Positions 44,973-57,686 are shown, counted from the stretch's first letter. The stretch: 64,000 bases of DNA from Thermoproteota archaeon (GCA_029258885.1 JAPDJW010000002.1:320001-384000); one strand, 5' to 3'. Program-made: numbers and translations. Notes: generated by a model not told the origin, from the sequence alone.

Positions 44973-45797
44973 CTACTTTCCAGAAATTTTATCAAGAATA
45001 GCTGGCCTAACTATATCTCCGGTGGCCTTTAAAACCCAAATCCCTTCCTCTCTAGCCCTTTCTATCAGATCATGCATAGCAAGCGATACATAGATAACGG
45101 GAATAATAGTCTTCCTCACCTTTTCCGGATAATTAAGCTTAAGCTTTTCGATCTTCCTTATAAGCTCATCGACAAGAGACCTACCAGCTCTAACACTCAC
45201 CTCACCTATAATGCAAACGTCATCGGATACTCCATAAATGTTTATCTCAATTCCGGGAAGTACAAGCCTATACAAATTAACGTCTAGACCAAGCTCCCTA
45301 AGCCTATACTTGACAACCGACAACCCCTCATCCTCAATATCCAACGTAAGCTTCTCAAGCGTACGCTCAACCCTAGACAACCTATTACTGAGACTCTCAA
45401 TCATCCTATTGAAGTCTTCTCTCAGTCTTATCTGCTCTTTCCTCATTTCATTGAATTCCTCTCTTAGCCTTATTTGCTCCTTTCTCATCTCGTTGAAGTC
45501 TTCTCTCAGCTTTATCTGCTCCTTTCTTAGCTCTTCAAAGCTTTTCCTCATTTCATTGAAGTCTTCCCTTAGCTTTATCTGCTCTTTCCTCATCTCCTCA
45601 AAGCTCCTCCATAGCTTTATCTGCTCTTTCCTCATTTCGTTGAATTCTTCCCTTAGCCTTATCTGCTCCTCCATTAGATCGTCTAGTCTCTCAAGTATCT
45701 CTCTCATACCGATGTATCCGGCTACCGCATACCTAAATTCCTTATCCTCCTCAAGTAACCTTAGTATTTTTTCCTTAAGCTGACGCATACCTCCCAA
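44973..45797 (-). CDS. Heptad-repeat coiled-coil protein with a C-terminal PD-(D/E)xK-like domain (DUF3782/paREP-like)
   Basis: LLEEDKEFRYAVAG N-terminus, repeated EQI(R/K)LREEFNEMRK units, EINIYG...IGEVSVR C-terminus. Confidence 0.8.
   Translation of the reverse strand: MGGMRQLKEKILRLLEEDKEFRYAVAGYIGMREILERLDDLMEEQIRLREEFNEMRKEQIKLWRSFEEMRKEQIKLREDFNEMRKSFEELRKEQIKLREDFNEMRKEQIRLREEFNEMRKEQIRLREDFNRMIESLSNRLSRVERTLEKLTLDIEDEGLSVVKYRLRELGLDVNLYRLVLPGIEINIYGVSDDVCIIGEVSVRAGRSLVDELIRKIEKLKLNYPEKVRKTIIPVIYVSLAMHDLIERAREEGIWVLKATGDIVRPAILDKISGK
45390..45680. repeat. Imperfect 42-bp tandem repeats (14-aa unit) inside the coiled-coil gene
   Basis: Recurring CTTATCTGCTC...CTCATTTC(A/G)TTGAA units, about 6 copies. 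Boundaries approximate. Confidence 0.8.
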
Positions 45798-47331: not shown

Positions 47332-47430
47332 ATGGCTAGCATTGCAGAGCTGATAAGGAAGGGTGAGGGAGAAACCATAGAGTTTAAGAGAAGCCTAGCC
47401 GAGCTTAGAGAGATAGTTGAGACTAAGTAA
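47332..47430 (+). pseudogene. 5' fragment of a Schlafen/AlbA_2-domain gene cut by the integrated element
   Basis: MASIAELIRKGEGETIEFKRSLAELREIVET continues in frame at 56454 as IVETICAFSNTRGG once the element is removed. Confidence 0.9.
47413..47425 (+). repeat. attL: 13-bp direct repeat ATAGTTGAGACTA
   Basis: Identical copy at 56454-56466. Recombining the two restores the host reading frame. Confidence 0.9.
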
Positions 47431-47484
47431 ACGGATGTGTTGAGATAGCTTTTTATAGAACCGGATGCGAAAACTTAGCTCGTG

Positions 47485-48864
47485 ATGGGGGCTACGAAAT
47501 CTCAGGTTTTAGAGGACTTCCTGAAGCTCTATTCGGATAAGACTAGTACTCCAAAGACGTACAGGTACCTCCTAGAGATATTTTTCAAGATGGCGGGAAC
47601 TACGCCTGACGATTTTGCTGAGATGGTGAAGCAAGATCCCGAGAAAGCAAAGAACTTATGCTACGATGTCCTTCACAGGATGCAGGTGGAGAAGGTGAGG
47701 GATAAGCAGAAACTGAGGGGAGGGGGATATTCCCCGAAAACTATAACGAACGCTATGGTGGCATTAAACCAGTTTCTCAGCTTCCTCAACGCTGGGTTCA
47801 GGGTCAAGGTGAGGGGGATTAAGCCTATTCCTGTAAATCTAGACTACATCCCCTCCATCGAAGAGATCGAGATATTAATCTCTAAGGCTAGGTTCGAGGT
47901 TAAGCCTATAATAGCATTGATAGCTTTCTCTGGAATGAGAATAGGAGACATCTTAAAGCTGAGGTATAAGAATATAGCTGGCGACATAGAATACATTCCC
48001 GAGGAGAAAAAGTATAGGGCTAAGAGGCTGCCTGCTAAGATCATAGTATTTCAGGAAAAGACTGGGAGACCGTACGTTACCTTCATGGGCTCGAAGTGTT
48101 GTGGAATTCTCACTACTTACCTCAACGACCTCGTTGTAAGGAGGGGGAGACCTCTCGAGGACGAGGATAAGCTGTTCAAGCTAACCTACCAAGCTTTCAT
48201 TATGGCCTTTATGAGGCTCGTCAAGAGGTGTAGCATTCAAGTTCCTTCGATCAAGAGGCTCCGTCCATACTCTCTTAGGAAATACTTTAGGCTACACGTC
48301 TCTAAGCTAGGCGAGGAGACGGCTGAGTATTTGATGGGGCATGTCCGGGGGATAAATTCACTTACCGCTACCTACACGGGGCTACGTGACTTAGATCGCC
48401 GCGCGGTAGAGGAGCTCAGGAAGAGGTTTGCTGAAATACTCCCTGAACTTGAAGGAACTGCGTTCATGTTCAAGGAGGAAGTAGAGAAGCTACATCGGCA
48501 ACAGCAGGAAGAGCTGGAGAGGCTACGAAGGGAGGTCGAGTACTTGAGGGAGGCTCATAACAAGCTCCTCAAAATTCTCACGTGGGATGTCTTAGAGCCC
48601 CACGACCTGAAGAAGATATTCAGCTTCGCCTACGAGATAGCTGGCAAGAGGCTCCGTGAAACGTACTTGAAAGAGGACGAGGAACGGGTGAAAAGGGATT
48701 TTGAGGATGCGGCTAGGGTCGTAGCTAGGAGTATTGAAACTATGAAGGAGAGGAAATACGTTATTGCAAGAGGGGAAGCAGATCTCCTCAACTACCTCGA
48801 AATAGGCTACGAGCTAGTGAAGGAGCTGTCTGGAAACAGGTTTCTGCTCAGGAGACCAAAGTAG
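47485..48864 (+). CDS. Tyrosine integrase (intact, with C-terminal coiled-coil)
   Basis: FSGMRIGDIL (R), QEKT (K), YSLRKYFR, YLMGH and ATY catalytic set. Located 59 nt from attL. Confidence 0.92.
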   Translation: MGATKSQVLEDFLKLYSDKTSTPKTYRYLLEIFFKMAGTTPDDFAEMVKQDPEKAKNLCYDVLHRMQVEKVRDKQKLRGGGYSPKTITNAMVALNQFLSFLNAGFRVKVRGIKPIPVNLDYIPSIEEIEILISKARFEVKPIIALIAFSGMRIGDILKLRYKNIAGDIEYIPEEKKYRAKRLPAKIIVFQEKTGRPYVTFMGSKCCGILTTYLNDLVVRRGRPLEDEDKLFKLTYQAFIMAFMRLVKRCSIQVPSIKRLRPYSLRKYFRLHVSKLGEETAEYLMGHVRGINSLTATYTGLRDLDRRAVEELRKRFAEILPELEGTAFMFKEEVEKLHRQQQEELERLRREVEYLREAHNKLLKILTWDVLEPHDLKKIFSFAYEIAGKRLRETYLKEDEERVKRDFEDAARVVARSIETMKERKYVIARGEADLLNYLEIGYELVKELSGNRFLLRRPK

Positions 48865-48942: not shown

Positions 48943-49393
48943 ATGCGAATTCACGAGGCATTAAAGGAAACAGCTCATGGAGAGGAAGGGGATGTATGCT
49001 TTCAGGATCCCCGTCTCCGGATCGAGGGATCTCCCCGACGTCTTTGCAGTAGACAGCTACGGGAAAGCCGTCTACGCCTTCGAAATAAAATCTACCACGA
49101 GGCGGGTGGTGAAGGTGAAGAGGAAGCAGATCACTAGACTGCTCCGCTTCTGCAAAGCTTTCGAGAGGATAGCTAAGACTGCCGCCCTCCTCGCAGTGTA
49201 CAGCTACAGGCTGAGGCGCTGGTTCGTCTGGGAGGTAGACAAGTCGGCTCCATACTACTCTGAGGCGGTGATAGTGCTAGATTTCCAGAACTCGGGGGCA
49301 GTAGTGAGGAAAGGCGATTTTTTAAATCGGGGGATCTATAGCGAAATGTTCACGAAGCTCCTGAATCCCAAGCGTGGGAGTTTTCAGCGGTAA
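48943..49393 (+). CDS. Hjc-like Holliday junction resolvase with a +1 frameshift near its start
   Basis: FRIPVSGS..LPDVFAV...FEIKST core in ORF 48977-49393. The N-terminal MRIHEAL is in another frame and joins RKQLMERKG if A48964 is skipped. Confidence 0.75.
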
Positions 49394-49458: not shown

Positions 49459-49740
49459 TCAGCGGCGGTAGTAGTATTCCTCGCTCTCGGGTTGCCTCCC
49501 GAAGATAGCTGAGAGAACTACCCAGAGGAAGAGGAAGATGAACAGGTACGGGAGCCCGGTGTAGACGAAGGAGTCGACGATGCTCTTTATGCTGTTGGCG
49601 CTCGCCTCCCAGCGGGTTCCGCTGACGTTGAAGAGCGGGAGGATCTGCGTGTCGATGACGTTGTAGTACACCATGTCGATGAGGTAGTAGAGCACTGAAA
49701 ACATCAGCACGACGAACATTAGGACGGCGATGATCCTCAC
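49459..49740 (-). CDS. Two-helix hydrophobic protein, putative minor capsid/structural protein
   Basis: Two long hydrophobic segments joined by NVSGTRWEASAN, GGTGA RBS 5 nt before GTG, similar to the 88-aa protein. Confidence 0.6.
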   Translation of the reverse strand: MRIIAVLMFVVLMFSVLYYLIDMVYYNVIDTQILPLFNVSGTRWEASANSIKSIVDSFVYTGLPYLFIFLFLWVVLSAIFGRQPESEEYYYRR

Positions 49741-49749
49741 CTAAATCAC

Positions 49750-52623
49750 CTATTTGCCCCTCTTCTTCCTCTTCTTCCTCCTCGAAGCTTTCTTCAGCCT
49801 CCTCGCTTCGCTCCTTATGATCTTCTCGGGAGTCAGCCACTTGCTGAGCCACTTGTCCCACTTCTTCAGCAGTGAGAAGCTGAAAACTGCTCCCCCTCTC
49901 CTGAGCTTGAAGGGCGGAGGGGGTAGCTTGAACGATGGAGGAGGCTCGAAGTCTCCTAAGTCTCCAACAGAGATTAGCTCCTCTACTTGAGCTTCTACTT
50001 CTCCCACCACCTCGTCTATTTCAGCAAACACGTTAGTTTCGAGTTCAGTTTTCTGAAGCGAGGTGAGGCTAACTTTAGGAGTTGGGAAAAAGGCGTATTC
50101 CTCTGCGCTCACGCCTCTAACAGCAGGTACGGGTCTCCTAACTTTCTTCTTCCTCTTCTTCAGCTCTAGCTCTAGCTTAGGTATGGAGGAAATAACATCC
50201 CTAAAACTAATTTCGGGTATTTCAGCGCTTATCTCAACCTGAATAGGCGGTATTTGTAGAGATAGAGCCTCCTTTGCCTCCCCCACTTCTACGCCTGATA
50301 TGGAGGGCAGAGCTACGACTGGAATTAAAGTTAGTTCTTTGGCCGCCTTAACCGATATAGGCTTTGCGCTAACTGGGAGGGGGAAGGTTACTTCCTTACC
50401 TAGCTCTGCGTACTTTGAGACAGGAAGTCCTCCAGTTAGCATTTGGGCGTATTCGTCTAGCTGTGCTAACGCCCACTTAGGTTTGAATGCAGTTTTGAAC
50501 GTAGTCTTCACTCCCTCCTCAGCTCCCAAGCCAGCAATCATAGTTTTAAATTCGAAGCTGTATCCTGGCAGAACTCCTTTCTCGAACTTAATCACATATC
50601 TAACGTCCTTTACCGCATCGTCTACATACTCTAAGAATCTGAGGGCGTCGACAGGCGTACCTCCTACCTTCCCCACTCCGGTGTAAATACCCTTTCCTCC
50701 CTCCCTCACGTACCTGTAGAAGCTCTTCCAAAAGTCTTCGCCCATCCAGACCTCTCCCACAGCGAGACACTTGCCGCTAAAGTACTTGTCGTAGGCTAGT
50801 TGAAGCTCAAGTGGAGAATATATCTTTTGAGCGGAAGCAAATTCTTCCGTTGGGAGACGAGACACCCTCCACAGCTTAACTTCTCCCTTGACGATGTCGT
50901 CTATTTCTCCACCTAACTTGATCACTCCCTCGTTGTCTTTTAAGAACTGCTTGTACACGTCTTCGGCTATGTCGTCCCAGTAGGTATATATTCTCCCCTC
51001 TGCTTCGACTAATATGTCTCCCCCTCCTGAGAGCACCCTACCCTTCATCCTAACCTCAGACGGGAACTCTCCGTAATATTTTGTCTCCCTGAGCAGTTTA
51101 TCTGTAATCTCGCCAACTTTCTCCTTAACGAAGGAAAAAACGCTCCTCCTACCGACAAAATAGCTTCCAATCCCCGGGAGCTCTCCCGTTTCAACGTAGT
51201 ACTGGTAGGTACTTGGGAAGACTTTTTTAGCGATTTTTCCTCCAACTTCTTTAGCCTTCCTCACTCCCTTCTCTACCATCGGGATTATTGGGTTCAGGAG
51301 CTCAGCTAGGAGTTCGCCTTGCACGTATTCTCCTAACGCTATTCCGGGAGCCATCCCCGGGTGTTCGACGAATATCGTGCCTAAGTCTAGCGGAACGTTA
51401 TAGCCGAATATAGTTCCCCACGACTCAAAGCTCCTGATAAATCCAGCAGGTATGTTAATGTAGGTGGACACAGGCTTCGGCTCATATCCCGCAAGAACCC
51501 TCGGGAGGTTCCACCAAGTTGCTAACGGAAGAGCAAACGTTAGACCCCATTTTGCTTCACTTCCAAAGGTCTCTCCAATCCAGGCGTCTATGCTTGCTCC
51601 AATGCTTGCTAGTAAACCGCTTATCGTCCTGTCCTGCGTGCTCTCCCGATATTTCTCTTCTAGCCATCGGTTGTATTCGTTTATTTCATTGTTTAAATTG
51701 TTTATGAAATTGTTGAACTCCTCTACCTCCTTATTGAAGGAAGAAGCTATCGCCTCATACTCGCTAACGTGTCTCTGTAGACTGCCAGCGACGTCTTCGT
51801 ACTCGCCCCTTATCTCCCTCATCCTGTTTATTATCCTCCTGTATTCTCTGACGTACTTCTCGTATTTCCTGCCGTATTTTGCGTTTAACTGCCGTAGCCT
51901 CGCTTCATATTCCTCCCTAGTTATCTCTCCGTTCTCGTACATGTCTTTAAGCCTCTCGTATTCATCCACTATAGACATTATCTTCTTCCTGAGAGACATC
52001 GCCTTATTGTATAGCCTCTCGTACTCCTTTCCTAAGCCTTCGAGCCTCTCCTTTTCACGCTTTATATTCTCCTCAAGAGGCTTGAGCTTAAACTCTGTCT
52101 CAGCTTTCTTGCTGACCAGCTCCCCGTACCATTCCATAGCCTTCCTCTTCTTTTCTTCTATCTCCTCAGGCGTAACTGGAGGCTCCTCTACGCCGGAAGG
52201 TATCTCTACTCTACTCCCTCCTCTAATCCTCAGACCCTCTTCCCTATATAAGTCCTCCTCAACCAAATCCTCTATCAAGTCTTCGGGCAGTTCTCCACCA
52301 ATTCCTGCCTCAGTTCCGCCGCCAACTTCACCGGAGCTTGCCTCCTCCTTTCCTCCAAATTGAGGCATCGTAGATGGAACAGGGGGAACGATATCGGACG
52401 GCACCTCGAAGCCCAACATATAGCTAGGAATGAAATCAACCGTAGAAACGTCTCCACTTTCCTTACGTCCTCCCCCGCCTTCCTCAGTCGCAGACGTAGT
52501 TGGATGCACAGTCACTTCTTCGTCTGGAAGGGGAACTTCCTCCTCCTTCCTCTTTTTCTCTTCTTCCTCTTCGCCTGCTCCCGCTGACTCCGCGCCTAAA
52601 GAGAAATATTCTTCGACGGGAAT
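49750..52623 (-). CDS. Large (921 aa from GTG 52515; 957 aa from ATT 52623) acidic/coiled-coil protein with a polybasic C-terminus, putative virion protein
   Basis: Glu/Gly-rich N-terminus, long coiled-coil, weakly hydrophobic middle, C-terminal RRLKKASRRKKRKKRGK. The frame is open up to an ATT preceded by GGTGA. Confidence 0.7.
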   Translation of the reverse strand: MPVEEYFSLGAESAGAGEEEEEKKRKEEEVPLPDEEVTVHPTTSATEEGGGGRKESGDVSTVDFIPSYMLGFEVPSDIVPPVPSTMPQFGGKEEASSGEVGGGTEAGIGGELPEDLIEDLVEEDLYREEGLRIRGGSRVEIPSGVEEPPVTPEEIEEKKRKAMEWYGELVSKKAETEFKLKPLEENIKREKERLEGLGKEYERLYNKAMSLRKKIMSIVDEYERLKDMYENGEITREEYEARLRQLNAKYGRKYEKYVREYRRIINRMREIRGEYEDVAGSLQRHVSEYEAIASSFNKEVEEFNNFINNLNNEINEYNRWLEEKYRESTQDRTISGLLASIGASIDAWIGETFGSEAKWGLTFALPLATWWNLPRVLAGYEPKPVSTYINIPAGFIRSFESWGTIFGYNVPLDLGTIFVEHPGMAPGIALGEYVQGELLAELLNPIIPMVEKGVRKAKEVGGKIAKKVFPSTYQYYVETGELPGIGSYFVGRRSVFSFVKEKVGEITDKLLRETKYYGEFPSEVRMKGRVLSGGGDILVEAEGRIYTYWDDIAEDVYKQFLKDNEGVIKLGGEIDDIVKGEVKLWRVSRLPTEEFASAQKIYSPLELQLAYDKYFSGKCLAVGEVWMGEDFWKSFYRYVREGGKGIYTGVGKVGGTPVDALRFLEYVDDAVKDVRYVIKFEKGVLPGYSFEFKTMIAGLGAEEGVKTTFKTAFKPKWALAQLDEYAQMLTGGLPVSKYAELGKEVTFPLPVSAKPISVKAAKELTLIPVVALPSISGVEVGEAKEALSLQIPPIQVEISAEIPEISFRDVISSIPKLELELKKRKKKVRRPVPAVRGVSAEEYAFFPTPKVSLTSLQKTELETNVFAEIDEVVGEVEAQVEELISVGDLGDFEPPPSFKLPPPPFKLRRGGAVFSFSLLKKWDKWLSKWLTPEKIIRSEARRLKKASRRKKRKKRGK

Positions 52624-52724
52624 CTACCTCACCCCCACAGGAGCTTCAAAAACACCACCTTAAATTGGAGAGAATTGTTCAAGGGAAAAAATGAAGTTAA
52701 CTCTTCCTGCTGGCTTACTCTTAC

Positions 52725-52991
52725 TTACTCCCTGCCTCCTCCGCCGGCGAGACCCATTAGAAGCCTAAGCATGAATGCCGCAATGATCACCATGAAGGCT
52801 ACGCCTAACAGCGTGAATCCCGTTTGAACGGCGGTTACGAAGTTGTTGTAGGGAGTAGCCCAGTTAGTCCCCGTCAGGTTCATCGAGCTCTCGACTTGTG
52901 CGGCGATGTAGAGGCCGATGACTACTGTACATATTAGTACTACGGCGGCAATCGCTATACCGGCAAGCCCAACCTGACCCTTCCTGTTCAT
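52725..52991 (-). CDS. Two-helix hydrophobic protein, putative major capsid protein (spindle/bacilliform type)
   Basis: 88 aa, MNRKG|Q basic N-terminus, two hydrophobic helices flanking NLTGTNW with a sequon, strong GAGGTG RBS. Confidence 0.65.
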   Translation of the reverse strand: MNRKGQVGLAGIAIAAVVLICTVVIGLYIAAQVESSMNLTGTNWATPYNNFVTAVQTGFTLLGVAFMVIIAAFMLRLLMGLAGGGGRE

Positions 52992-53325
52992 ACGCTCACA
53001 CCTCTATCTAATGAAAGAGGAAGAAGTATATCAGGGAAATTACATTCACGGCCTATTAGGAGCTAGCTTTGCGGATGCATAACGTTGATTATAATTATAT
53101 TATATTGCTGGGAGGGGTTTGTTATACAACGATCCAACGCCGCCCGCTTCCCCGTCGCCACAGCGGAAGAGGCGCAGAGCACAGAGGGGGAAGGTTTAGC
53201 GGAGAGGTCAGTCATCATCGTAGACTCAGGGAGGGGGTCGAAGTCATCGGTATGATACATCAAATCCCCTACGTTGCGGCGAAAGTGAAATTATCCCTTC
53301 CTCATCGGAGGAAATCCGCCGAGTT

Positions 53326-53697
53326 CTAGAACTCCATCAGCCTCTTAAACTCGTTAGCTGGCAGAATTATAAAATCTTTACCAGCATATTCTGGCGGTAG
53401 ATACTTAAGTACTTCTGCATACTTGTACTTACCTTTCTTTGTAACGAGCTTCGCCCTCACCCTCCAGACTTTCATCGAGCCATCCTTCACTTTCAGCCCA
53501 ATAGGCTTCTTTATCCACTCCTTAACTTCCACTAAAATCTGGTCAGTCCCCTTAACCTCCTTCACGGTGGCATTTACCGCTTTGAACTTATCCTCAAGCA
53601 CTTCATAGACCTCTCTATCCATTATCAGAACTACGGGATCATGTGTGTAACTTATGTAACGTGTGTAACGTTGAAGTAAATGTTTTCTATTTCTCAT
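53326..53697 (-). CDS. Hypothetical protein of the element
   Basis: 123-aa Lys-rich ORF with GGAGG RBS. C-terminal YLPPEYAGKDFII is reminiscent of swapped-hairpin (AbrB-like) proteins. Confidence 0.6.
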   Translation of the reverse strand: MRNRKHLLQRYTRYISYTHDPVVLIMDREVYEVLEDKFKAVNATVKEVKGTDQILVEVKEWIKKPIGLKVKDGSMKVWRVRAKLVTKKGKYKYAEVLKYLPPEYAGKDFIILPANEFKRLMEF

Positions 53698-53742: not shown

Positions 53743-54316
53743 AAATTTGCATTAATTTGTATTGCAAATTTTCTATTTGCATTAATTTGTATTGCAAATT
53801 TTCTTATCTCTTTTTACGTATTTCAGCTCCGATTCTAGCTGGTATGGAAATTTGCAAATTTGCATAGAGGTAGTAGTTAAAGTCCTTCCACGCCGCTGGC
53901 GGTGCGGTAGCGGCCTCACAGTTAAATGAATAATATACTCTCCTCCCTGCTTCTCAATTTTGAAGCGGCTACCTCTGTATTTCTCTAAGAACTCTTTTAT
54001 ATCGGGCTTACTAAATCCAAATTCACTCTCCAGAAACTGGACGAACTCCTTTCCGCTAATTCTCCCTCCCCGCTCTCTAATAAACGCTTCAACCTCTTCA
54101 GCCACAACCTCATAAACAAGATCGTTAAAGGACACCTTTTCTCCCGTTATGGGGTCTACGTATTCTCCTCCAGCCATCTCCCTAACTTTACTTATATCTC
54201 TATGCAAATTTGCAAATTTCCTAATCAGCCCTTTAATGTACTGAATAACGCCTGATACGTCATCTAAATTTGCATTACAACCAAATGCGAATTTTTCTTT
54301 CTCTTTTTGCAAATTG
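53743..54316. repeat. Cluster of AAATTTGCA/TGCAAATTT dyads including a 30-bp tandem duplication (53745-53804)
   Basis: Motifs at 53743, 53763, 53775, 53793, 53848-53864, 54203-54219, 54266 and 54286. Confidence 0.8.
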
Positions 54317-55581
54317 CTCGGAAACTCAGAGACTAGTTTATATGCGGGTCTGTATATGTTTCCCCTCCTACCTCCTCTACCCTCTTTAATCAGGTACCCT
54401 TTATCCACTAAGTCTTCCAGCTTACCGTAGATCGTTCTCCTGCTGTATCCCAGCTTCTCTCCTACAACGTCGAAGACCTGGTTGACGGTAACTCCTTCTC
54501 CGTTTTCGGAACATAAATCTAGGACGACTTGAAGTATGTATCTTTCCTGTTTGGTTAGCTCGAAAATTGAGTGCTCCAGTGCATTATAGCCCAGCCTTAA
54601 AGCAATAGCCAAATCCACCAAATCCGCTCTATCCCTTAAACTCTCTGGCTTCTGGAAGTATCTGCAAATAGCTATTTGCTTTATTAATCCTCCAAGTTTC
54701 AGCGGATACCTCCTGCTCTCAGATCTTTCAGAGGGGATCAAATCCTTCAACTCAGTTGCATAGGGAATTATTGGGTCAACGTCAACCGTAGCTATAATCC
54801 TGAAAGCCTCCTGCCAAACCTTCAGCTCCTTTGCGTCGTGTGGGAGTACATCTTTCTTTCCCTCTAAATGTTTGAGCCACACCTCGATGACCTCCTCTGT
54901 GAATTTGGGGTCGCTAGACAGTTCAATTCTCCACATCCCGCTTTTGAGAGCTGAGCTAATTCTACGTACGTTCGTTGTGGTTATTATCCCTTTAACTGGC
55001 ATTTTCACGACGGCTGTCTCCATCTGCTTTGTTTTCGGGTTCATGTAGGCGTACTCTGAGATGATTCCTCCATCGCTAGTCCTCATCAGTCTGAACTGTC
55101 TCTCCATCTCTCCTACAACTAAATCTATATCAGGGATATACAGTATATCTGCCTCCTTGAGTTCCTCTGAATATCTCATCGCGGCTGGCGTAAAGTAGCC
55201 TCTCTCTATACACTTCACAGCTTTCTTCAAGAGGAACAGAGACATCCTAACCATGCTGTCCTTTCCAGTTCCAGGCTCACCCACAACCTGGATTAAGGTG
55301 ACATAGCCCCTCTTGACAGCCATCAAGAGTATTGGAAGTAATCTCTTGTTGGCCTCCTCTCCTAATATGAAGCGTGGTTTATTCAGCTCTGGAAGTACAA
55401 AGCCATAGCTAAATATTTTTCCCAACTTATAGAAGAAGTCTGGAGACTTAAGCAACTCCTTCGCCTCAGATTCGAGTTCCTTCGCCTCAGATTCGAGTTC
55501 ATACTCAGTCATAAATTCTTCTAGGTCTCCCTCTAACTCCTTACTCTCCTCGCCGTCCTCTACAACCTTACCTCTCTTCAA
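53782..55581 (-). CDS. P-loop NTPase / putative replicative helicase with C-terminal winged-helix domains
   Basis: GEEANKRLL pre-motif, Walker A GEPGTGKD, Walker B-like LYIPD, sensor TTTN, wHTH YSRRTIYGKLEDLVDKGYL. Confidence 0.75.
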   Translation of the reverse strand: MKRGKVVEDGEESKELEGDLEEFMTEYELESEAKELESEAKELLKSPDFFYKLGKIFSYGFVLPELNKPRFILGEEANKRLLPILLMAVKRGYVTLIQVVGEPGTGKDSMVRMSLFLLKKAVKCIERGYFTPAAMRYSEELKEADILYIPDIDLVVGEMERQFRLMRTSDGGIISEYAYMNPKTKQMETAVVKMPVKGIITTTNVRRISSALKSGMWRIELSSDPKFTEEVIEVWLKHLEGKKDVLPHDAKELKVWQEAFRIIATVDVDPIIPYATELKDLIPSERSESRRYPLKLGGLIKQIAICRYFQKPESLRDRADLVDLAIALRLGYNALEHSIFELTKQERYILQVVLDLCSENGEGVTVNQVFDVVGEKLGYSRRTIYGKLEDLVDKGYLIKEGRGGRRGNIYRPAYKLVSEFPSNLQKEKEKFAFGCNANLDDVSGVIQYIKGLIRKFANLHRDISKVREMAGGEYVDPITGEKVSFNDLVYEVVAEEVEAFIRERGGRISGKEFVQFLESEFGFSKPDIKEFLEKYRGSRFKIEKQGGEYIIHLTVRPLPHRQRRGRTLTTTSMQICKFPYQLESELKYVKRDKKICNTN

Positions 55582-55888
55582 TCAAATTCACCTCCACAGA
55601 GAACTTCTGACGGAGAAATCGGACGACCTCCACTCCCCTCTCAGTTAAATAATTATAGGTGGCAGGAACCCTTAAGCTCGGATGCATTCTCCGAACCCTA
55701 AACACAAGCCCAGCTTTCTCTAACTGCTTTAGGTAATAGCTTACTTCCCGTCCGCCGAGGAGATTACTTATCTCGCAGGTGTAGAGCGGCTTGTTGGTGA
55801 AGTATAGACAGAGCAGTATCTCTAAGTTCCGCTTACAAAAAACTTTATTAACACGCTCAGCGAACTTCTTTATAAAGTAAGTATTCAT
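55568..55888 (-). CDS. Winged-HTH DNA-binding protein
   Basis: NLEILLCL...EISNLL...YYLKQLEKAGLV...YLTERG. GGAGGTGA RBS. Confidence 0.8.
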   Translation of the reverse strand: MNTYFIKKFAERVNKVFCKRNLEILLCLYFTNKPLYTCEISNLLGGREVSYYLKQLEKAGLVFRVRRMHPSLRVPATYNYLTERGVEVVRFLRQKFSVEVNLIEER

Positions 55889-55967
55889 ACTATCACCTCC
55901 TGAAGTTCTTCTTTCAATTGGTTAGAATTTGTTCAAATACGGGAAAATTGAAACTTAAACTGCCTTC

Positions 55968-56237
55968 TTATTCCCCTTCCTCACCTTCGCCTTGATTTCC
56001 AGCCACCCTTTTCGCAAGTTCCTCGAACTTCAAGATGGAAATTTTGATGTTCCTCTCCTTCGGCTCACATCTAATGATGGCGAGGTCTCCCTTTTCAAGG
56101 TTTAGAGCTTTCGCTACCTCCATAGGAATTGTAACAGCGTAGCAGGTTCGCAAATACAATATCCGCCTGACGTGTAGCACTTTACCACCTTTAACACAGC
56201 CTTTCAATTGGAATAAATCTCGACTTAACTTCCTCAT
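55968..56237 (-). CDS. AbrB/MazE-like swapped-hairpin DNA-binding protein
   Basis: YAVTIPMEVAKALNLEKGD motif. Confidence 0.8.
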   Translation of the reverse strand: MRKLSRDLFQLKGCVKGGKVLHVRRILYLRTCYAVTIPMEVAKALNLEKGDLAIIRCEPKERNIKISILKFEELAKRVAGNQGEGEEGE

Positions 56238-56453: not shown

Positions 56454-56466
56454 ATAGTTGAGACTA
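56454..56466 (+). repeat. attR: 13-bp direct repeat ATAGTTGAGACTA
   Basis: Identical to 47413-47425. Confidence 0.9.
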
Positions 56467-57686
56467 TATGTGCATTTTCTAATACACGTGGAGGGATAGT
56501 TCTTGTTGGAGTTAACGATAAGGGTGAAGTCGTAGGAGTCGATGTTAGCAGGAGTACTATAGAGAATCTGGTTTCCAGGATAGCTAGGGAGACAAACCCT
56601 AGGATATATCCTGAGGTGGAGGTTGTAGAGTTTAACGGCAGAAAAGTTATTGTTATAAGGGTTTCCGAATGAACGGATAAGCCAGTATTTGCCTTCGGCG
56701 TAGCCTACAAGAGGGTTGGGAAAAGCAATCTTAAAATGGATAGGGATGAGATACTTAGGCTTTTCAGAGAGTCCCGAAGGATAAGCTTTGAAGACGAGAA
56801 AATATGTACTATAAGTGAGCTCGACTACGGGAAAATTAAAAGCTTTATTGAGAGAGCTTCCGCGTATAGAAGAGCTGTGCTACCCAGCGACCCGAAATCG
56901 GTTCTAGATAACCTCGGCATGTTGCTAAATGATCACATTAATATCGCTGGTCTCCTAGCTTTCGGCAGAAATCCTCAGAAGTATTTTCCGTATGCGTGCA
57001 TAAAGATAGGGAAGTTTGTATCGGGGAGTATTATTTTTGAAAAGGAAATTAAGGGAGATATTATCGAACAGATCGAAAGGGCATATGCTGAGGTATTGAG
57101 TCTTATAAAACGAGAAATTAAGGTTAAAGGATTAAAAAGAGAGGAGGTCTACGAGTATCCGCCTAAGGCTTTGAGGGAAGCCGTAGTTAACGCTGTAGCG
57201 CACAGGGATTACTCGATTAAATCACCTATCTATATAAGGATATACGAGGACAGGATAGAGTTTGAAAATCCCGGAGGATTAATTGATTTAACAGTTGAAG
57301 ACTTAAAGAAGCCTCATAAATCAATACTAAGGAACCCTAAGATAGCGGAAGTACTATATTACTTGGGCTTCATAGAGAAGTGGGGCATAGGTACACTAAT
57401 GATTATTAAAGAGTGTATTTTAAACGGAAACGGCGAGCCAGTATTCGAGTCCAATGGTAGCTTTAAACTTACAATCTTCTCAAGGTACTTTAGCTCATTA
57501 GATCCTGTGGAGCGGAAAATAATTGATTACATTGGGGAGAAGGGCGTAGTTGAAAGAAGGGAAATTCAGGAGCATCTTAAGCTAGCTGAAAGCACGGTTA
57601 GGAAATACCTAATTAAGCTTAGGCTAAGAGGCTTAATAGTTAAAATTGGAAGGGGAAAGAGGACGGTTTATAAGCTTGCGCTTTAA
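56454..57686 (+). pseudogene. 3' part of a Schlafen/AlbA_2 + HATPase-like (RecG_C-type) + wHTH gene, with an in-frame TGA at 56670
   Basis: ICAFSNTRGGIVLVGVNDKG, AYKRVGKS, then ORF 56736-57686 with REAVVNAVAHRDY, ENPGG, RNPKIA, IEKWGIG and a terminal wHTH. Confidence 0.88.

What the first reader, a model, noticed from the sequence alone, without database searches (positions are those of the whole stretch)
49459..52991. Two paralogous capsid-like proteins sharing an N-[LV]-[TS]-G-T-x-W-x4-N loop flank the large gene
Seen: the 88-aa (52725-52991) and 93-aa (49459-49740) proteins both have helix-loop-helix hydrophobic architecture. Their loops align (NLTGTNWATPYN vs NVSGTRWEASAN) and each carries an N-glycosylation sequon. 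The 88-aa protein starts MNRKG|Q, like a class III (prepilin-type) cleavage site. Established: spindle-shaped and bacilliform archaeal virus capsid proteins are two-helix hydrophobic glycoproteins, and SSV1 has the paralogues VP1/VP3. Inference: these are major and minor capsid proteins, possibly matured by the host prepilin peptidase. A conjugative-type pilin is the alternative, but no VirB4-like ATPase is present.
Basis: partly seen in the sequence, partly recalled or inferred. Interest (0 to 1): 0.8.

Follow-up and report, generated by a model that had tools for sequence, protein, structure and literature searches.

The report
Fusellovirus-like capsid gene pair in archaeal provirus
Two small hairpin membrane proteins flanking a large gene in a 9-kb provirus of an uncultured hot-spring archaeon are most likely the major and a minor coat protein of an undescribed group of viruses distantly related to the spindle-shaped Sulfolobus viruses.

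Summary
Both ORFs exist, both are predicted alpha-helical hairpins, and the shared loop motif occurs only in these two proteins in the six-frame translation of the 2.1-Mb host genome.

The 88-aa protein belongs to a family of about 30 distinct sequences. All come from short metagenome or MAG contigs, none of which looks like ordinary chromosome. In six distinct contig types its gene lies next to a Fusellovirus VP2 gene (Pfam PF25632, E down to 8e-28). It often follows an AAA ATPase gene or lies near an integrase.

The 93-aa protein has its own small family. Its members lie either directly after the 88-aa homologue or, as here, after a homologous 900-1200-aa protein. So "hairpin, large protein, hairpin" is a conserved module.

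With the relatives added, profile-profile comparison supports paralogy of the two families: 84% probability, score 35 against about 16 for reversed controls. Similarity of the 88-aa family to SSV VP1/VP3 is weaker (50-60%). That alignment places its KG|Q on the known KG|E maturation site of SSV1 VP1.

Nothing related was found in IMG/VR, GenBank phage records, plasmids or 185,579 reference genomes. Virion incorporation, leader cleavage and glycosylation remain untested.

The parts
52725..52991 (-). 88-aa hydrophobic alpha-hairpin, putative major capsid protein (VP1-like). It has a leader MNRKG|Q, helix 1, a loop with an NLT sequon, helix 2 and a Gly-rich basic tail.
49459..49740 (-). 93-aa hydrophobic alpha-hairpin, a divergent paralogue and putative minor structural protein. 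It has a loop with an NVS sequon, a conserved Pro at the start of helix 2, and a C-terminal RQxES..YYY tail.
49750..52515 (-). 921-aa protein with an acidic N-terminus, a coiled coil, a central moderately hydrophobic part and a polybasic C-terminus. The open frame reaches 52623. It is homologous to the 964-1209-aa proteins that sit between the two hairpin genes in related contigs. Presumed virion (terminal or internal) protein.
52992..53325 (-). Upstream region of the 88-aa gene with a TATA-like AT-rich box and a GAGGTG ribosome-binding site. It is 98-99% identical among four elements, although synonymous sites of the gene are far more diverged.
47413..47425 (.). attL: left copy of the 13-bp direct repeat ATAGTTGAGACTA, inside a split AlbA_2/Schlafen-like host gene.
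56454..56466 (.). attR: right copy of the same 13-bp repeat.
47482..48864 (+). Tyrosine integrase (460 aa, intact). It is 99.3-99.6% identical to the integrase of metagenome contigs L001, L047 and L048.
48977..49393 (+). Hjc-type Holliday junction resolvase.
53326..53697 (-). 123-aa protein. Its last 115 residues are 89% identical to the C-terminus of a 607-aa helicase-like protein in L048.
53782..55581 (-). 599-aa P-loop/winged-helix replication protein, with a 30-bp tandem repeat at its 3' end.
55568..56237 (-). wHTH (106 aa) and AbrB/MazE-like (89 aa) regulators.

Best explanation
The 88-aa protein is the major capsid protein of a 9.0-kb integrated virus of an uncultured Thermoprotei archaeon. 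It belongs to an undescribed family of VP1-like alpha-hairpin proteins, distantly related to the VP1/VP3 capsid proteins of Fuselloviridae. Inferred mechanism: it is made with a short N-terminal leader and inserted into the membrane as a two-helix hairpin. It is then cleaved at the [KR][GA]|Q boundary, as SSV1 VP1 is at KG|E, and N-glycosylated on the exposed loop. Finally it is packed laterally through its hydrophobic helices into a spindle-shaped or bacilliform shell around the DNA. The 93-aa protein is a diverged paralogue serving as a second, minor lattice or terminal component, playing the role of VP3. The 921-aa protein between them is a third virion component. The three genes form a conserved morphogenetic module. 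Shown here: family membership, gene linkage, hairpin models and profile similarity. Inferred: incorporation into virions, cleavage, glycosylation and virion shape.
For: (1) The family exists and occurs only sporadically. An exhaustive HMMER search found 18 representatives and a metagenome scan found 15 more loci. No member was found in IMG/VR, in GenBank phage records or in 185,579 reference genomes. Among 400 sampled genomes of the phylum only one hit appeared, a stop-interrupted remnant. (2) There is viral linkage. A Pfam Fusello_VP2_Capsid gene lies at or near the homologue in L017 (5e-14), L019 (2.6e-25), L053 (8e-28) and L056 (3.5e-25). Precomputed hits mark it in L028/L029 (weak) and L032. 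These VP2 proteins match SSV1, SSV19, ASV1 and SMF1 VP2. An AAA ATPase gene precedes the homologue in L017, L020, L045, L050 and L056. Integrases lie nearby in L001, L027, L028, L033 and L059, and a Cas4 gene in L045. (3) The module is conserved. The order 88-family, large protein, 93-family is found in the window, L050, L053 and L056. The large proteins are linked by BLASTP (921 aa against 1209 aa, 1e-8; 1088 against 964, E 0). In L028, L030, L032 and L033 the 93-family gene directly follows the 88-family gene. (4) Paralogy is supported. hhalign of 29 against 7 sequences gives probability 84%, P 7.6e-6 and score 34.8. Reversed-sequence controls score 16.2 and 15.8. Each family's HMM ranks members of the other above nearly all of 10,367 genome ORFs. 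(5) There is a link to SSV VP1/VP3. hhalign gives probability 50-60%, P about 1e-4 and score 29, against 19-21 for reversed controls. The global alignment puts KG|Q on SSV1 KG|E. The top non-self hit of the SSV HMM is an 88-family member. (6) The folds agree. The models have helices 9-36/45-83 and 2-37/43-80. SSV19 VP1 has helices 15-44/54-83 (PMC9351363). (7) About 23 of 29 members carry a loop sequon, and [KR][GA] lies at the leader boundary in 18 of 29. SSV VP1 leaders are likewise variable in length and are cleaved by an unknown protease (PMC5748691).
Against: There is no direct virion evidence. The sequence link to VP1/VP3 is below conventional significance: the PDB profile search gives 7xdi VP1 at E 0.59 among unrelated membrane proteins, and no Pfam or PHROG capsid family matches. 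Hydrophobic hairpins inflate profile scores, and fold searches cannot discriminate hairpins. VP2 homologues also occur in Thermus sphaerolipoviruses (PMC4158269), so VP2 indicates a virus but not a spindle shape. The window itself has no VP2 and no AAA ATPase of the type seen in relatives. The closest relatives (L001, L047, L048) have the same integrase and 90-92% identical 88-aa protein. Yet they carry a serine resolvase where the large gene, the 93-aa gene and Hjc lie here. The latter are therefore not obligatory partners. No homologue of the SSV VP4, B210 or C131 tail proteins was detected.
Confidence: 0.6

Rival explanations
1. The hairpins are viral or plasmid membrane proteins that do not build the capsid lattice. 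They could be envelope proteins of a pleomorphic, vesicle-like virus (pleolipovirus-style: small membrane protein plus large protein plus ATPase). They could also be egress, holin-like or superinfection-exclusion proteins of an integrative element.
For: Only hydrophobic hairpin architecture and linkage are shown. Weak Pfam hits of family members include a holin family. The arrangement AAA ATPase, small membrane protein, large protein superficially recalls the pleolipovirus core (own knowledge). The similarity to VP1/VP3 is not significant by standard thresholds.
Against: The 88-aa gene is the one gene shared by otherwise very different elements, which is the pattern expected for a capsid hallmark gene. 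It lies beside the virion DNA-binding protein VP2. The 921-aa protein has no signal peptide or C-terminal anchor in its sequence, unlike a spike protein. The colinear profile match to VP1/VP3 exceeds reversed controls.
Confidence: 0.2
2. The 88-aa protein is a pilin. It could be a VirB2/TraA/CedA1/TedC-like conjugative or DNA-import pilin. It could also be a minimal type IV pilin-like subunit processed by the prepilin peptidase and assembled into a filament rather than a capsid.
For: It has the hairpin architecture. It has a KG|Q leader followed by a hydrophobic helix. The host encodes Peptidase_A24 (42 bits). The 88-family HMM's second-best decoy in the genome is a host pilin-like protein with a KG|IS leader. 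There are sub-threshold hits to DUF7263 and to a Mycoplasma ICE pilin-like family in 3 of 19 members (best E 0.006).
Against: No VirB4/TrbE, VirD4, VirB6 or PilB/PilC-type gene appears in the Pfam scans of the element proteins or in the scanned and precomputed annotations of related contigs. Neighbours are VP2, an AAA+ ATPase with an HTH domain, integrases and Cas4. No curated archaellin or pilin profile matches. A second transmembrane helix replaces the globular pilin domain.
Confidence: 0.04
3. The two hairpins are not paralogues. The loop similarity is convergence or chance between two unrelated small membrane proteins that merely share a module.
For: BLASTP finds nothing between them. With few sequences hhalign gave only 22% probability, barely above reversed controls (23.4 against 20.5 and 18.5). 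The 93-family shows no detectable similarity to SSV VP1/VP3.
Against: With 29 and 7 sequences the probability rises to 84%, with score 34.8 against about 16 for controls, colinear over 54-81 columns. The L059 93-family member is hit by both HMMs, at 1.7e-8 and 9e-6. The Smith-Waterman score of the window pair is the top of 111 genomic hairpin ORFs.
Confidence: 0.2

Closest known systems
Fuselloviridae capsid proteins VP1/VP3 (SSV1; SSV19, PDB 7XDI)
   Same: They are small hydrophobic alpha-hairpins of 70-90 residues, with about 30-residue helices, a short loop and N-x-S/T sequons. A paralogous pair is encoded in one structural module with a large virion protein and, in relatives, VP2. The N-terminal leader is variable and ends in [KR][GA] before the mature N-terminus. 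There is a weak colinear profile match (probability 50-60%).
   Different: Sequence similarity is below standard significance. Gln replaces the universally conserved Glu at the mature N-terminus. A conserved Trp-x3-Tyr-x-Asn-Phe loop/helix-2 motif and a Gly-rich basic tail are absent from SSVs. The gene order differs: here the large protein lies between the two hairpins. The hosts are Thermoprotei other than Sulfolobales. The integrase is not split on integration. No VP4, B210 or C131 homologues were detected.
Fusellovirus VP2 (Pfam PF25632), virion DNA-binding protein
   Same: It is encoded next to the 88-aa family in six distinct contig types, as VP2 follows VP1/VP3 in SSV1.
   Different: It is absent from this window and from the whole host genome. 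VP2 also occurs in Thermus sphaerolipoviruses, so it is not specific to spindle viruses.
Clavaviridae (APBV1) major capsid protein
   Same: It is a hydrophobic alpha-hairpin capsid protein of a very small archaeal virus. The SSV19 paper notes that the fold is the same.
   Different: No sequence match was found (not among PDB profile hits). APBV1 is bacilliform, non-integrating and has a 5.3-kb genome (own knowledge).
Archaeal class III signal peptides (type IV pilins and archaellins; PibD/FlaK substrates)
   Same: There is a short basic leader, [KR][GA] at positions -2/-1, then a long hydrophobic helix. KGQVG resembles archaellin N-termini (own knowledge). The host has a Peptidase_A24 gene.
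   Different: No curated pilin or archaellin profile matches. There is a second membrane helix instead of a globular domain. There are no pilus assembly genes nearby. The motif is present in only about two thirds of the family.
VirB2/TraA, CedA1/TedC conjugative or DNA-import pilins
   Same: They are two-helix hydrophobic hairpins of similar size.
   Different: No VirB4-like ATPase or other type IV secretion or Ced/Ted genes lie nearby. The neighbours are of viral type.

Membership tests
Fuselloviridae VP1/VP3 major/minor capsid protein family | Two long hydrophobic alpha-helices joined by a short loop (alpha-hairpin), 70-90 residues when mature | tested here: met
   AlphaFold2 models: 88 aa has H9-36/H45-83 and 93 aa has H2-37/H43-80. 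SSV19 VP1 has 15-44/54-83.
Fuselloviridae VP1/VP3 major/minor capsid protein family | Significant sequence or profile similarity to VP1/VP3 | tested here: inconclusive
   For the 88-family, hhalign gives probability 50-60%, P about 1e-4 and score 29, against 19-21 for reversed controls. PDB 7xdi scores E 0.59. The 93-family shows none.
Fuselloviridae VP1/VP3 major/minor capsid protein family | N-terminal propeptide removed before a conserved Glu | tested here: inconclusive
   Gln stands in place of Glu. [KR][GA]Q lies at the aligned column in 12 of 29 members and [KR][GA] in 18 of 29. The global alignment superposes KG|Q on KG|E. Cleavage itself is not testable here.
Fuselloviridae VP1/VP3 major/minor capsid protein family | Encoded in a structural module with VP2 and a large virion (VP4-like) protein | tested here: inconclusive
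   VP2 is adjacent in relatives but absent from the window. A large protein is present and conserved but shows no BLASTP similarity to SSV1 VP4.
Fuselloviridae VP1/VP3 major/minor capsid protein family | Found in purified virions, glycosylated | not testable with these tools
   Sequons NLT and NVS lie in the loops. About 23 of 29 family members have a loop sequon.
Archaeal class III (prepilin-type) signal peptide proteins | [KR][GA] cleavage motif followed by a hydrophobic helix, and a prepilin peptidase in the host | tested here: met
   MNRKG|Q followed by a hydrophobic helix. Peptidase_A24 scores 42 bits in the host genome. This is a motif-level test only.
Archaeal class III (prepilin-type) signal peptide proteins | Match to curated pilin or archaellin N-terminal profiles; pilin-type C-terminal domain | tested here: not met
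   No NCBIfam pilin or archaellin family matched. Only a sub-threshold DUF7263 hit was found (13 bits against a cut-off of 27). The C-terminal half is a second membrane helix.
VirB2/CedA1/TedC-type conjugative pilins | Co-located VirB4-like ATPase and other secretion or import genes | tested here: not met
   Pfam scans of the nine element proteins and the scanned or precomputed annotations of related contigs show none.

The most novel reading that the evidence does not exclude
These elements represent a new family-level group of minimal (about 9 kb) spindle-shaped or bacilliform archaeal viruses. Their VP1-like coat protein would be matured by the host prepilin peptidase at a class III-type [KR][GA]| site. 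By extension, the long-unknown protease that cleaves fusellovirus VP1 at KG|E would be PibD. Hairpin capsid proteins would then be processed, and perhaps have originated, like pilin N-terminal helices.
Probability: 0.15. Interest if true: 0.8.

Novelty: new variant of a known kind. Interest (0 to 1): 0.6.

Why it matters
Spindle-shaped viruses are the emblematic archaea-specific virus type, but bona fide fuselloviruses are known only from Sulfolobales. This module would extend VP1/VP2-type virions to other, uncultured Thermoprotei, with one contig from a Thermogladius MAG. It would do so with one of the smallest genomes of the kind.

The finding supplies two new protein families and a conserved three-gene structural module that current capsid profiles (Pfam, PHROGs) miss. 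These can be used to find such viruses in metagenomes.

The conserved [KR][GA]|Q boundary aligns with the SSV1 VP1 cleavage site. This makes an old open question, the identity of the protease that matures VP1, testable with a concrete candidate: the prepilin peptidase.

Tried and rejected
Several searches found nothing:
- BLASTP of the two window proteins found no alignment.
- tblastn of the 88-aa, 921-aa and 599-aa proteins and of family members against GenBank phages and plasmids found nothing, apart from one chance hit at E 8.
- Scans of IMG/VR and of GTDB reference genomes (two scans) gave no relatives.
- Word-indexed protein searches gave only near-identical copies: the 88-aa protein had 2 hits and the 93-aa protein only itself.

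Fold searches could not discriminate. Foldseek against PDB gave nothing. VIA-align against 48,161 chains gave only generic helical hairpins or coiled coils at Z below 8. BFVD gave no hit at E <= 0.001. The best BFVD hit for the 93-aa model is a 'hypothetical membrane protein [uncultured virus]' D5L2F9 (E 0.53, probability 0.84), and its neighbouring accession D5L2F8 is also listed. I could not trace these records.

Other negative or unusable results:
- The homo-oligomer prediction (4 copies of residues 6-88) returned 'no answer', with score 0.07 against a mark of 0.42. It is not evidence either way.
- The 921-aa protein matched only coiled-coil noise in Pfam, PHROGs and 400 genomes. It showed no similarity to the 228-268-aa coiled-coil proteins of L027, L030 and L032.
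- Rfam found nothing in 47-57 kb, and RNA folding of the conserved upstream region gave z = 0.05. A structured RNA there is rejected.
- A literature search for a proposed link between PibD and VP1 found none.
- A search for the HAV1/HAV2 description was unproductive.
Full report
OBSERVATION. The three ORFs are as described: 88 aa at 52725-52991(-), 921 aa at 49750-52515(-) and 93 aa at 49459-49740(-). The 93-aa gene starts at a GTG that lies 5 nt after a GGTGA Shine-Dalgarno and 9 nt after the stop of the large gene. The 88-aa gene has GAGGTG before its ATG and an AT-rich TATA-like box about 90 nt upstream.

Both proteins are predicted alpha-hairpins. The 88-aa model has helices 9-36 and 45-83 (pLDDT 74). 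The 93-aa model has helices 2-37 and 43-80 (pLDDT 76).

BLASTP sees no similarity between them. Even so, their Smith-Waterman score of 53 is higher than that of the 88-aa protein against each of 111 other small two-TM ORFs of the same genome (maximum 43). Only 0.75% of shuffles that keep the helix/loop/helix segments reach it. That pattern was defined post hoc.

Comparison with three 90-92% identical homologues gives 11-15 synonymous against 8-9 non-synonymous differences. The 88-aa ORF is therefore a real gene under purifying selection.

SETTING. The genes lie in a 9.0-kb element bounded by a 13-bp direct repeat at 47413 and 56454. The repeat splits an AlbA_2/Schlafen-like host gene. The element has higher G+C than its flanks. 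It encodes the following:
- an intact tyrosine integrase
- an Hjc resolvase
- a 599-aa P-loop/winged-helix replication protein
- a wHTH protein
- an AbrB-like protein

The host is an uncultured 'Thermoprotei archaeon'. The name comes from a cluster mate of a flanking host gene. Its GTDB family holds only two genomes.

THE 88-aa FAMILY. An exhaustive HMMER search of 1.84 billion representatives found 18 relatives, with E from 7e-44 to 1e-3. A metagenome scan added 15 loci. This gave 29 distinct sequences. No Pfam, PHROG or NCBIfam family matches.

All members were found on short metagenome or MAG contigs. Nothing was found in IMG/VR, in GenBank phage records or in 185,579 reference genomes. Among 400 sampled genomes of the phylum, a profile search found only the host and one stop-interrupted remnant in a same-order genome.

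CONTEXT. The homologue is next to, or one to two genes from, a Pfam Fusello_VP2_Capsid gene in several contigs:
- L017 (5e-14)
- L019 (2.6e-25)
- L053 (8e-28)
- L056 (3.5e-25)
- L028/L029 and L032 (precomputed hits; 'weak' in L028/L029)

The VP2 proteins match VP2 of SSV1, SSV19, ASV1 and SMF1 at about 50-65% identity. In SSV genomes VP2 directly follows VP1 and VP3.

A 320-345-aa AAA ATPase precedes the homologue in L017, L020, L045, L050 and L056. Integrases, a Cas4 nuclease, AbrB-like proteins and primase-like proteins lie nearby. Across these otherwise very different gene sets, the 88-aa family is the shared gene. That is the pattern expected of a capsid hallmark gene.

THE 93-aa FAMILY AND THE MODULE. 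The 93-aa protein at first looked like an orphan. Reading the genes downstream of the 88-aa homologues changed that. Relatives lie directly after the homologue in L028 and L030 (BLASTP 1e-5 over the full length). A profile search then found two more clusters, one on a contig of a Thermogladius MAG. Both are again preceded by an 88-family gene.

In L050, L053 and L056 the order is 88-family, (VP2), a 964-1209-aa protein, 93-family. This is the order seen in the window. The large proteins are homologous in a chain:
- 921 aa against 1209 aa, E 1e-8
- 1209 aa against 1088 aa, E 2e-3
- 1088 aa against 964 aa, E 0
- 1088 aa against 921 aa, E 5e-3 in two colinear pieces

'Two hairpins flanking the large gene' is therefore a conserved three-gene module and not a local accident.

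PARALOGY. With few sequences the profile-profile signal was marginal. hhalign gave 22% probability and score 23.4, against 20.5 and 18.5 for reversed-sequence controls.

With 29 and 7 sequences it becomes clear. Probability is 84%, P is 7.6e-6 and the score is 34.8 over 54 columns (81 with relaxed settings). The controls score 16.2 and 15.8.

Two further results agree. The L059 member of the 93-family is hit by both family HMMs, at 1.7e-8 and 9e-6. In a decoy test with 10,367 genome ORFs, the 93-family HMM ranks 88-family members first. The 88-family HMM puts four of five 93-family members among its top dozen non-self hits.

I rate paralogy as likely, at about 0.75-0.8.

RELATION TO FUSELLOVIRUS VP1/VP3. 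I aligned ten VP1/VP3 sequences taken from annotated SSV records. The 88-family matched them at 50-60% probability, P about 1e-4 and score 29, against 19-21 for reversed controls. The match is colinear. The best non-self hit of the SSV HMM among the decoys is an 88-family member. The PDB profile search lists SSV19 VP1 (7xdi) colinearly over 60 residues, but only at E 0.59, among unrelated membrane proteins. The 93-family shows no signal to SSV proteins. This evidence is suggestive and not conclusive.

The predicted helix/loop/helix geometry equals that solved for SSV19 VP1, with helices 15-44 and 54-83 and a loop at 45-53 (PMC9351363). Fold searches cannot discriminate such hairpins.

THE N-TERMINUS. 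Leaders before helix 1 vary from 0 to more than 50 residues. At the leader/helix boundary, 12 of 29 members have [KR][GA]Q at the same alignment column and 18 of 29 have [KR][GA]. Three of the four sequences with fewer than five residues before that column lack the motif.

The global profile alignment places the window's KG|Q exactly on SSV1's KG|E. SSV1 VP1 is known to be cleaved before that conserved Glu by an unknown protease. The residues just upstream are essential, the leader length varies between SSVs, and an E66Q mutant is still infectious (PMC5748691).

The same motif is also the generic class III (prepilin) site. The host encodes a Peptidase_A24 enzyme. A host pilin-like protein with a KG|IS leader is one of the best decoys of the family HMM. 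No curated pilin or archaellin profile matches. Leader cleavage at KG|Q is thus a reasonable inference. The enzyme remains open, and I found no paper proposing PibD for VP1.

Loop sequons are present in about 23 of 29 members of the 88-family and, by inspection of alignment A8, in 3 of 7 members of the 93-family.

ALTERNATIVES. A conjugative or type IV pilin is unlikely, because no secretion or pilus genes appear in any context examined. A non-capsid membrane role, such as an envelope or egress protein, cannot be excluded, because everything rests on linkage and weak homology.

VP2 is also found in Thermus sphaerolipoviruses (PMC4158269). It therefore marks a virus and not a virion shape, and a bacilliform shell like that of APBV1 is as possible as a spindle.

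The closest relatives of the element (L001, L047, L048) share a 99.3-99.6% identical integrase and a 90-92% identical 88-aa protein. They carry a serine resolvase where the large gene, the 93-aa gene and Hjc lie here. The 88-aa gene is thus the constant part and the other two are dispensable or exchangeable. SSV1 shows the same pattern, with VP1 essential and VP3 dispensable.

VERDICT. I found no description of these two families, or of the module, in any library or collection searched. I class it as a new variant of a known kind: hairpin-protein capsids of the fusellovirus type. This scan had noted the same stretch before, in another window of the same genome. It had not been found on other DNA.

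Noticed in passing
window 52992-53270 (- strand), compared with L001, L047, L048: The 280 nt upstream of the 88-aa gene differ at only 2-6 positions between elements, while the 267-nt gene differs at 20-24 positions (11-15 of them synonymous). Either the non-coding region is under strong constraint or the capsid gene was exchanged by recombination. There is no Rfam match and no stable fold (z 0.05). A 66-aa ORF there shows non-synonymous changes.
   Followed up: partly
L001, L047, L048 (metagenome contigs): These sister elements have a 99.3-99.6% identical integrase and a 90-92% identical 88-aa protein. A serine resolvase replaces the large gene, the 93-aa gene and Hjc. A 607-aa helicase-like protein has a C-terminal 115 residues that are 89% identical to the window's separate 123-aa protein. 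This is modular shuffling, and these elements may be satellites or defective.
   Followed up: partly
window 47413-47425 and 56454-56466: A 13-bp direct repeat flanks the element inside an AlbA_2/Schlafen-like protein-coding gene. Its 5' end lies at about 47332-47425 and it continues from 56454 towards the HATPase_c_4 gene at 56736-57686. Integration is into a protein gene and not a tRNA; there is no tRNA in the whole window.
   Followed up: partly
window 52516-52623 (- strand): The open frame of the large protein extends 36 codons upstream of the GTG at 52515. A GGTGAGG Shine-Dalgarno-like site precedes an ATT at about 52623, so the true start may be non-canonical and the protein about 957 aa long.
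   Followed up: no
window 53745-53804: There is an exact 30-bp tandem duplication containing an ATTTGCA...TGCAAAT dyad at the 3' end of the 599-aa replication gene. A 74% similar copy lies at 54265-54295. The repeats look like an origin or iterons.
   Followed up: no
G347:C72:4355-4531 (L003/L064): This is the only other genomic copy of the 88-aa family among 400 sampled genomes of the phylum. It is a remnant in a G+C-rich, same-order genome, interrupted by a TAG and lacking a hydrophobic N-terminal half, at a contig end. It is probably a decayed provirus.
   Followed up: partly
L028, L030, L032, L033: In these contigs the pair of 88-family and 93-family genes is followed by a conserved 126-131-aa multi-TM protein. 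In L030 and L032 a 228-268-aa coiled-coil protein comes next; its L027 homologue directly follows the 88-family gene. A CxxC zinc-ribbon protein recurs in L027 and L028. These may be further structural genes of this virus group.
   Followed up: no
window 44973-45797 (- strand): A host coiled-coil protein of 274 aa is built from 42-nt (14-aa) tandem repeats (REEFNEMRKEQIKL-like), with seven copies at 45359-45725.
   Followed up: no
BFVD entries D5L2F9 and D5L2F8: Two consecutively numbered 'hypothetical membrane proteins [uncultured virus]' of 92 and 87 aa are among the best structural matches of the 93-aa model (probability 0.84 and 0.38, not significant). They could be another such hairpin pair in a deposited environmental virus.
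   Followed up: no
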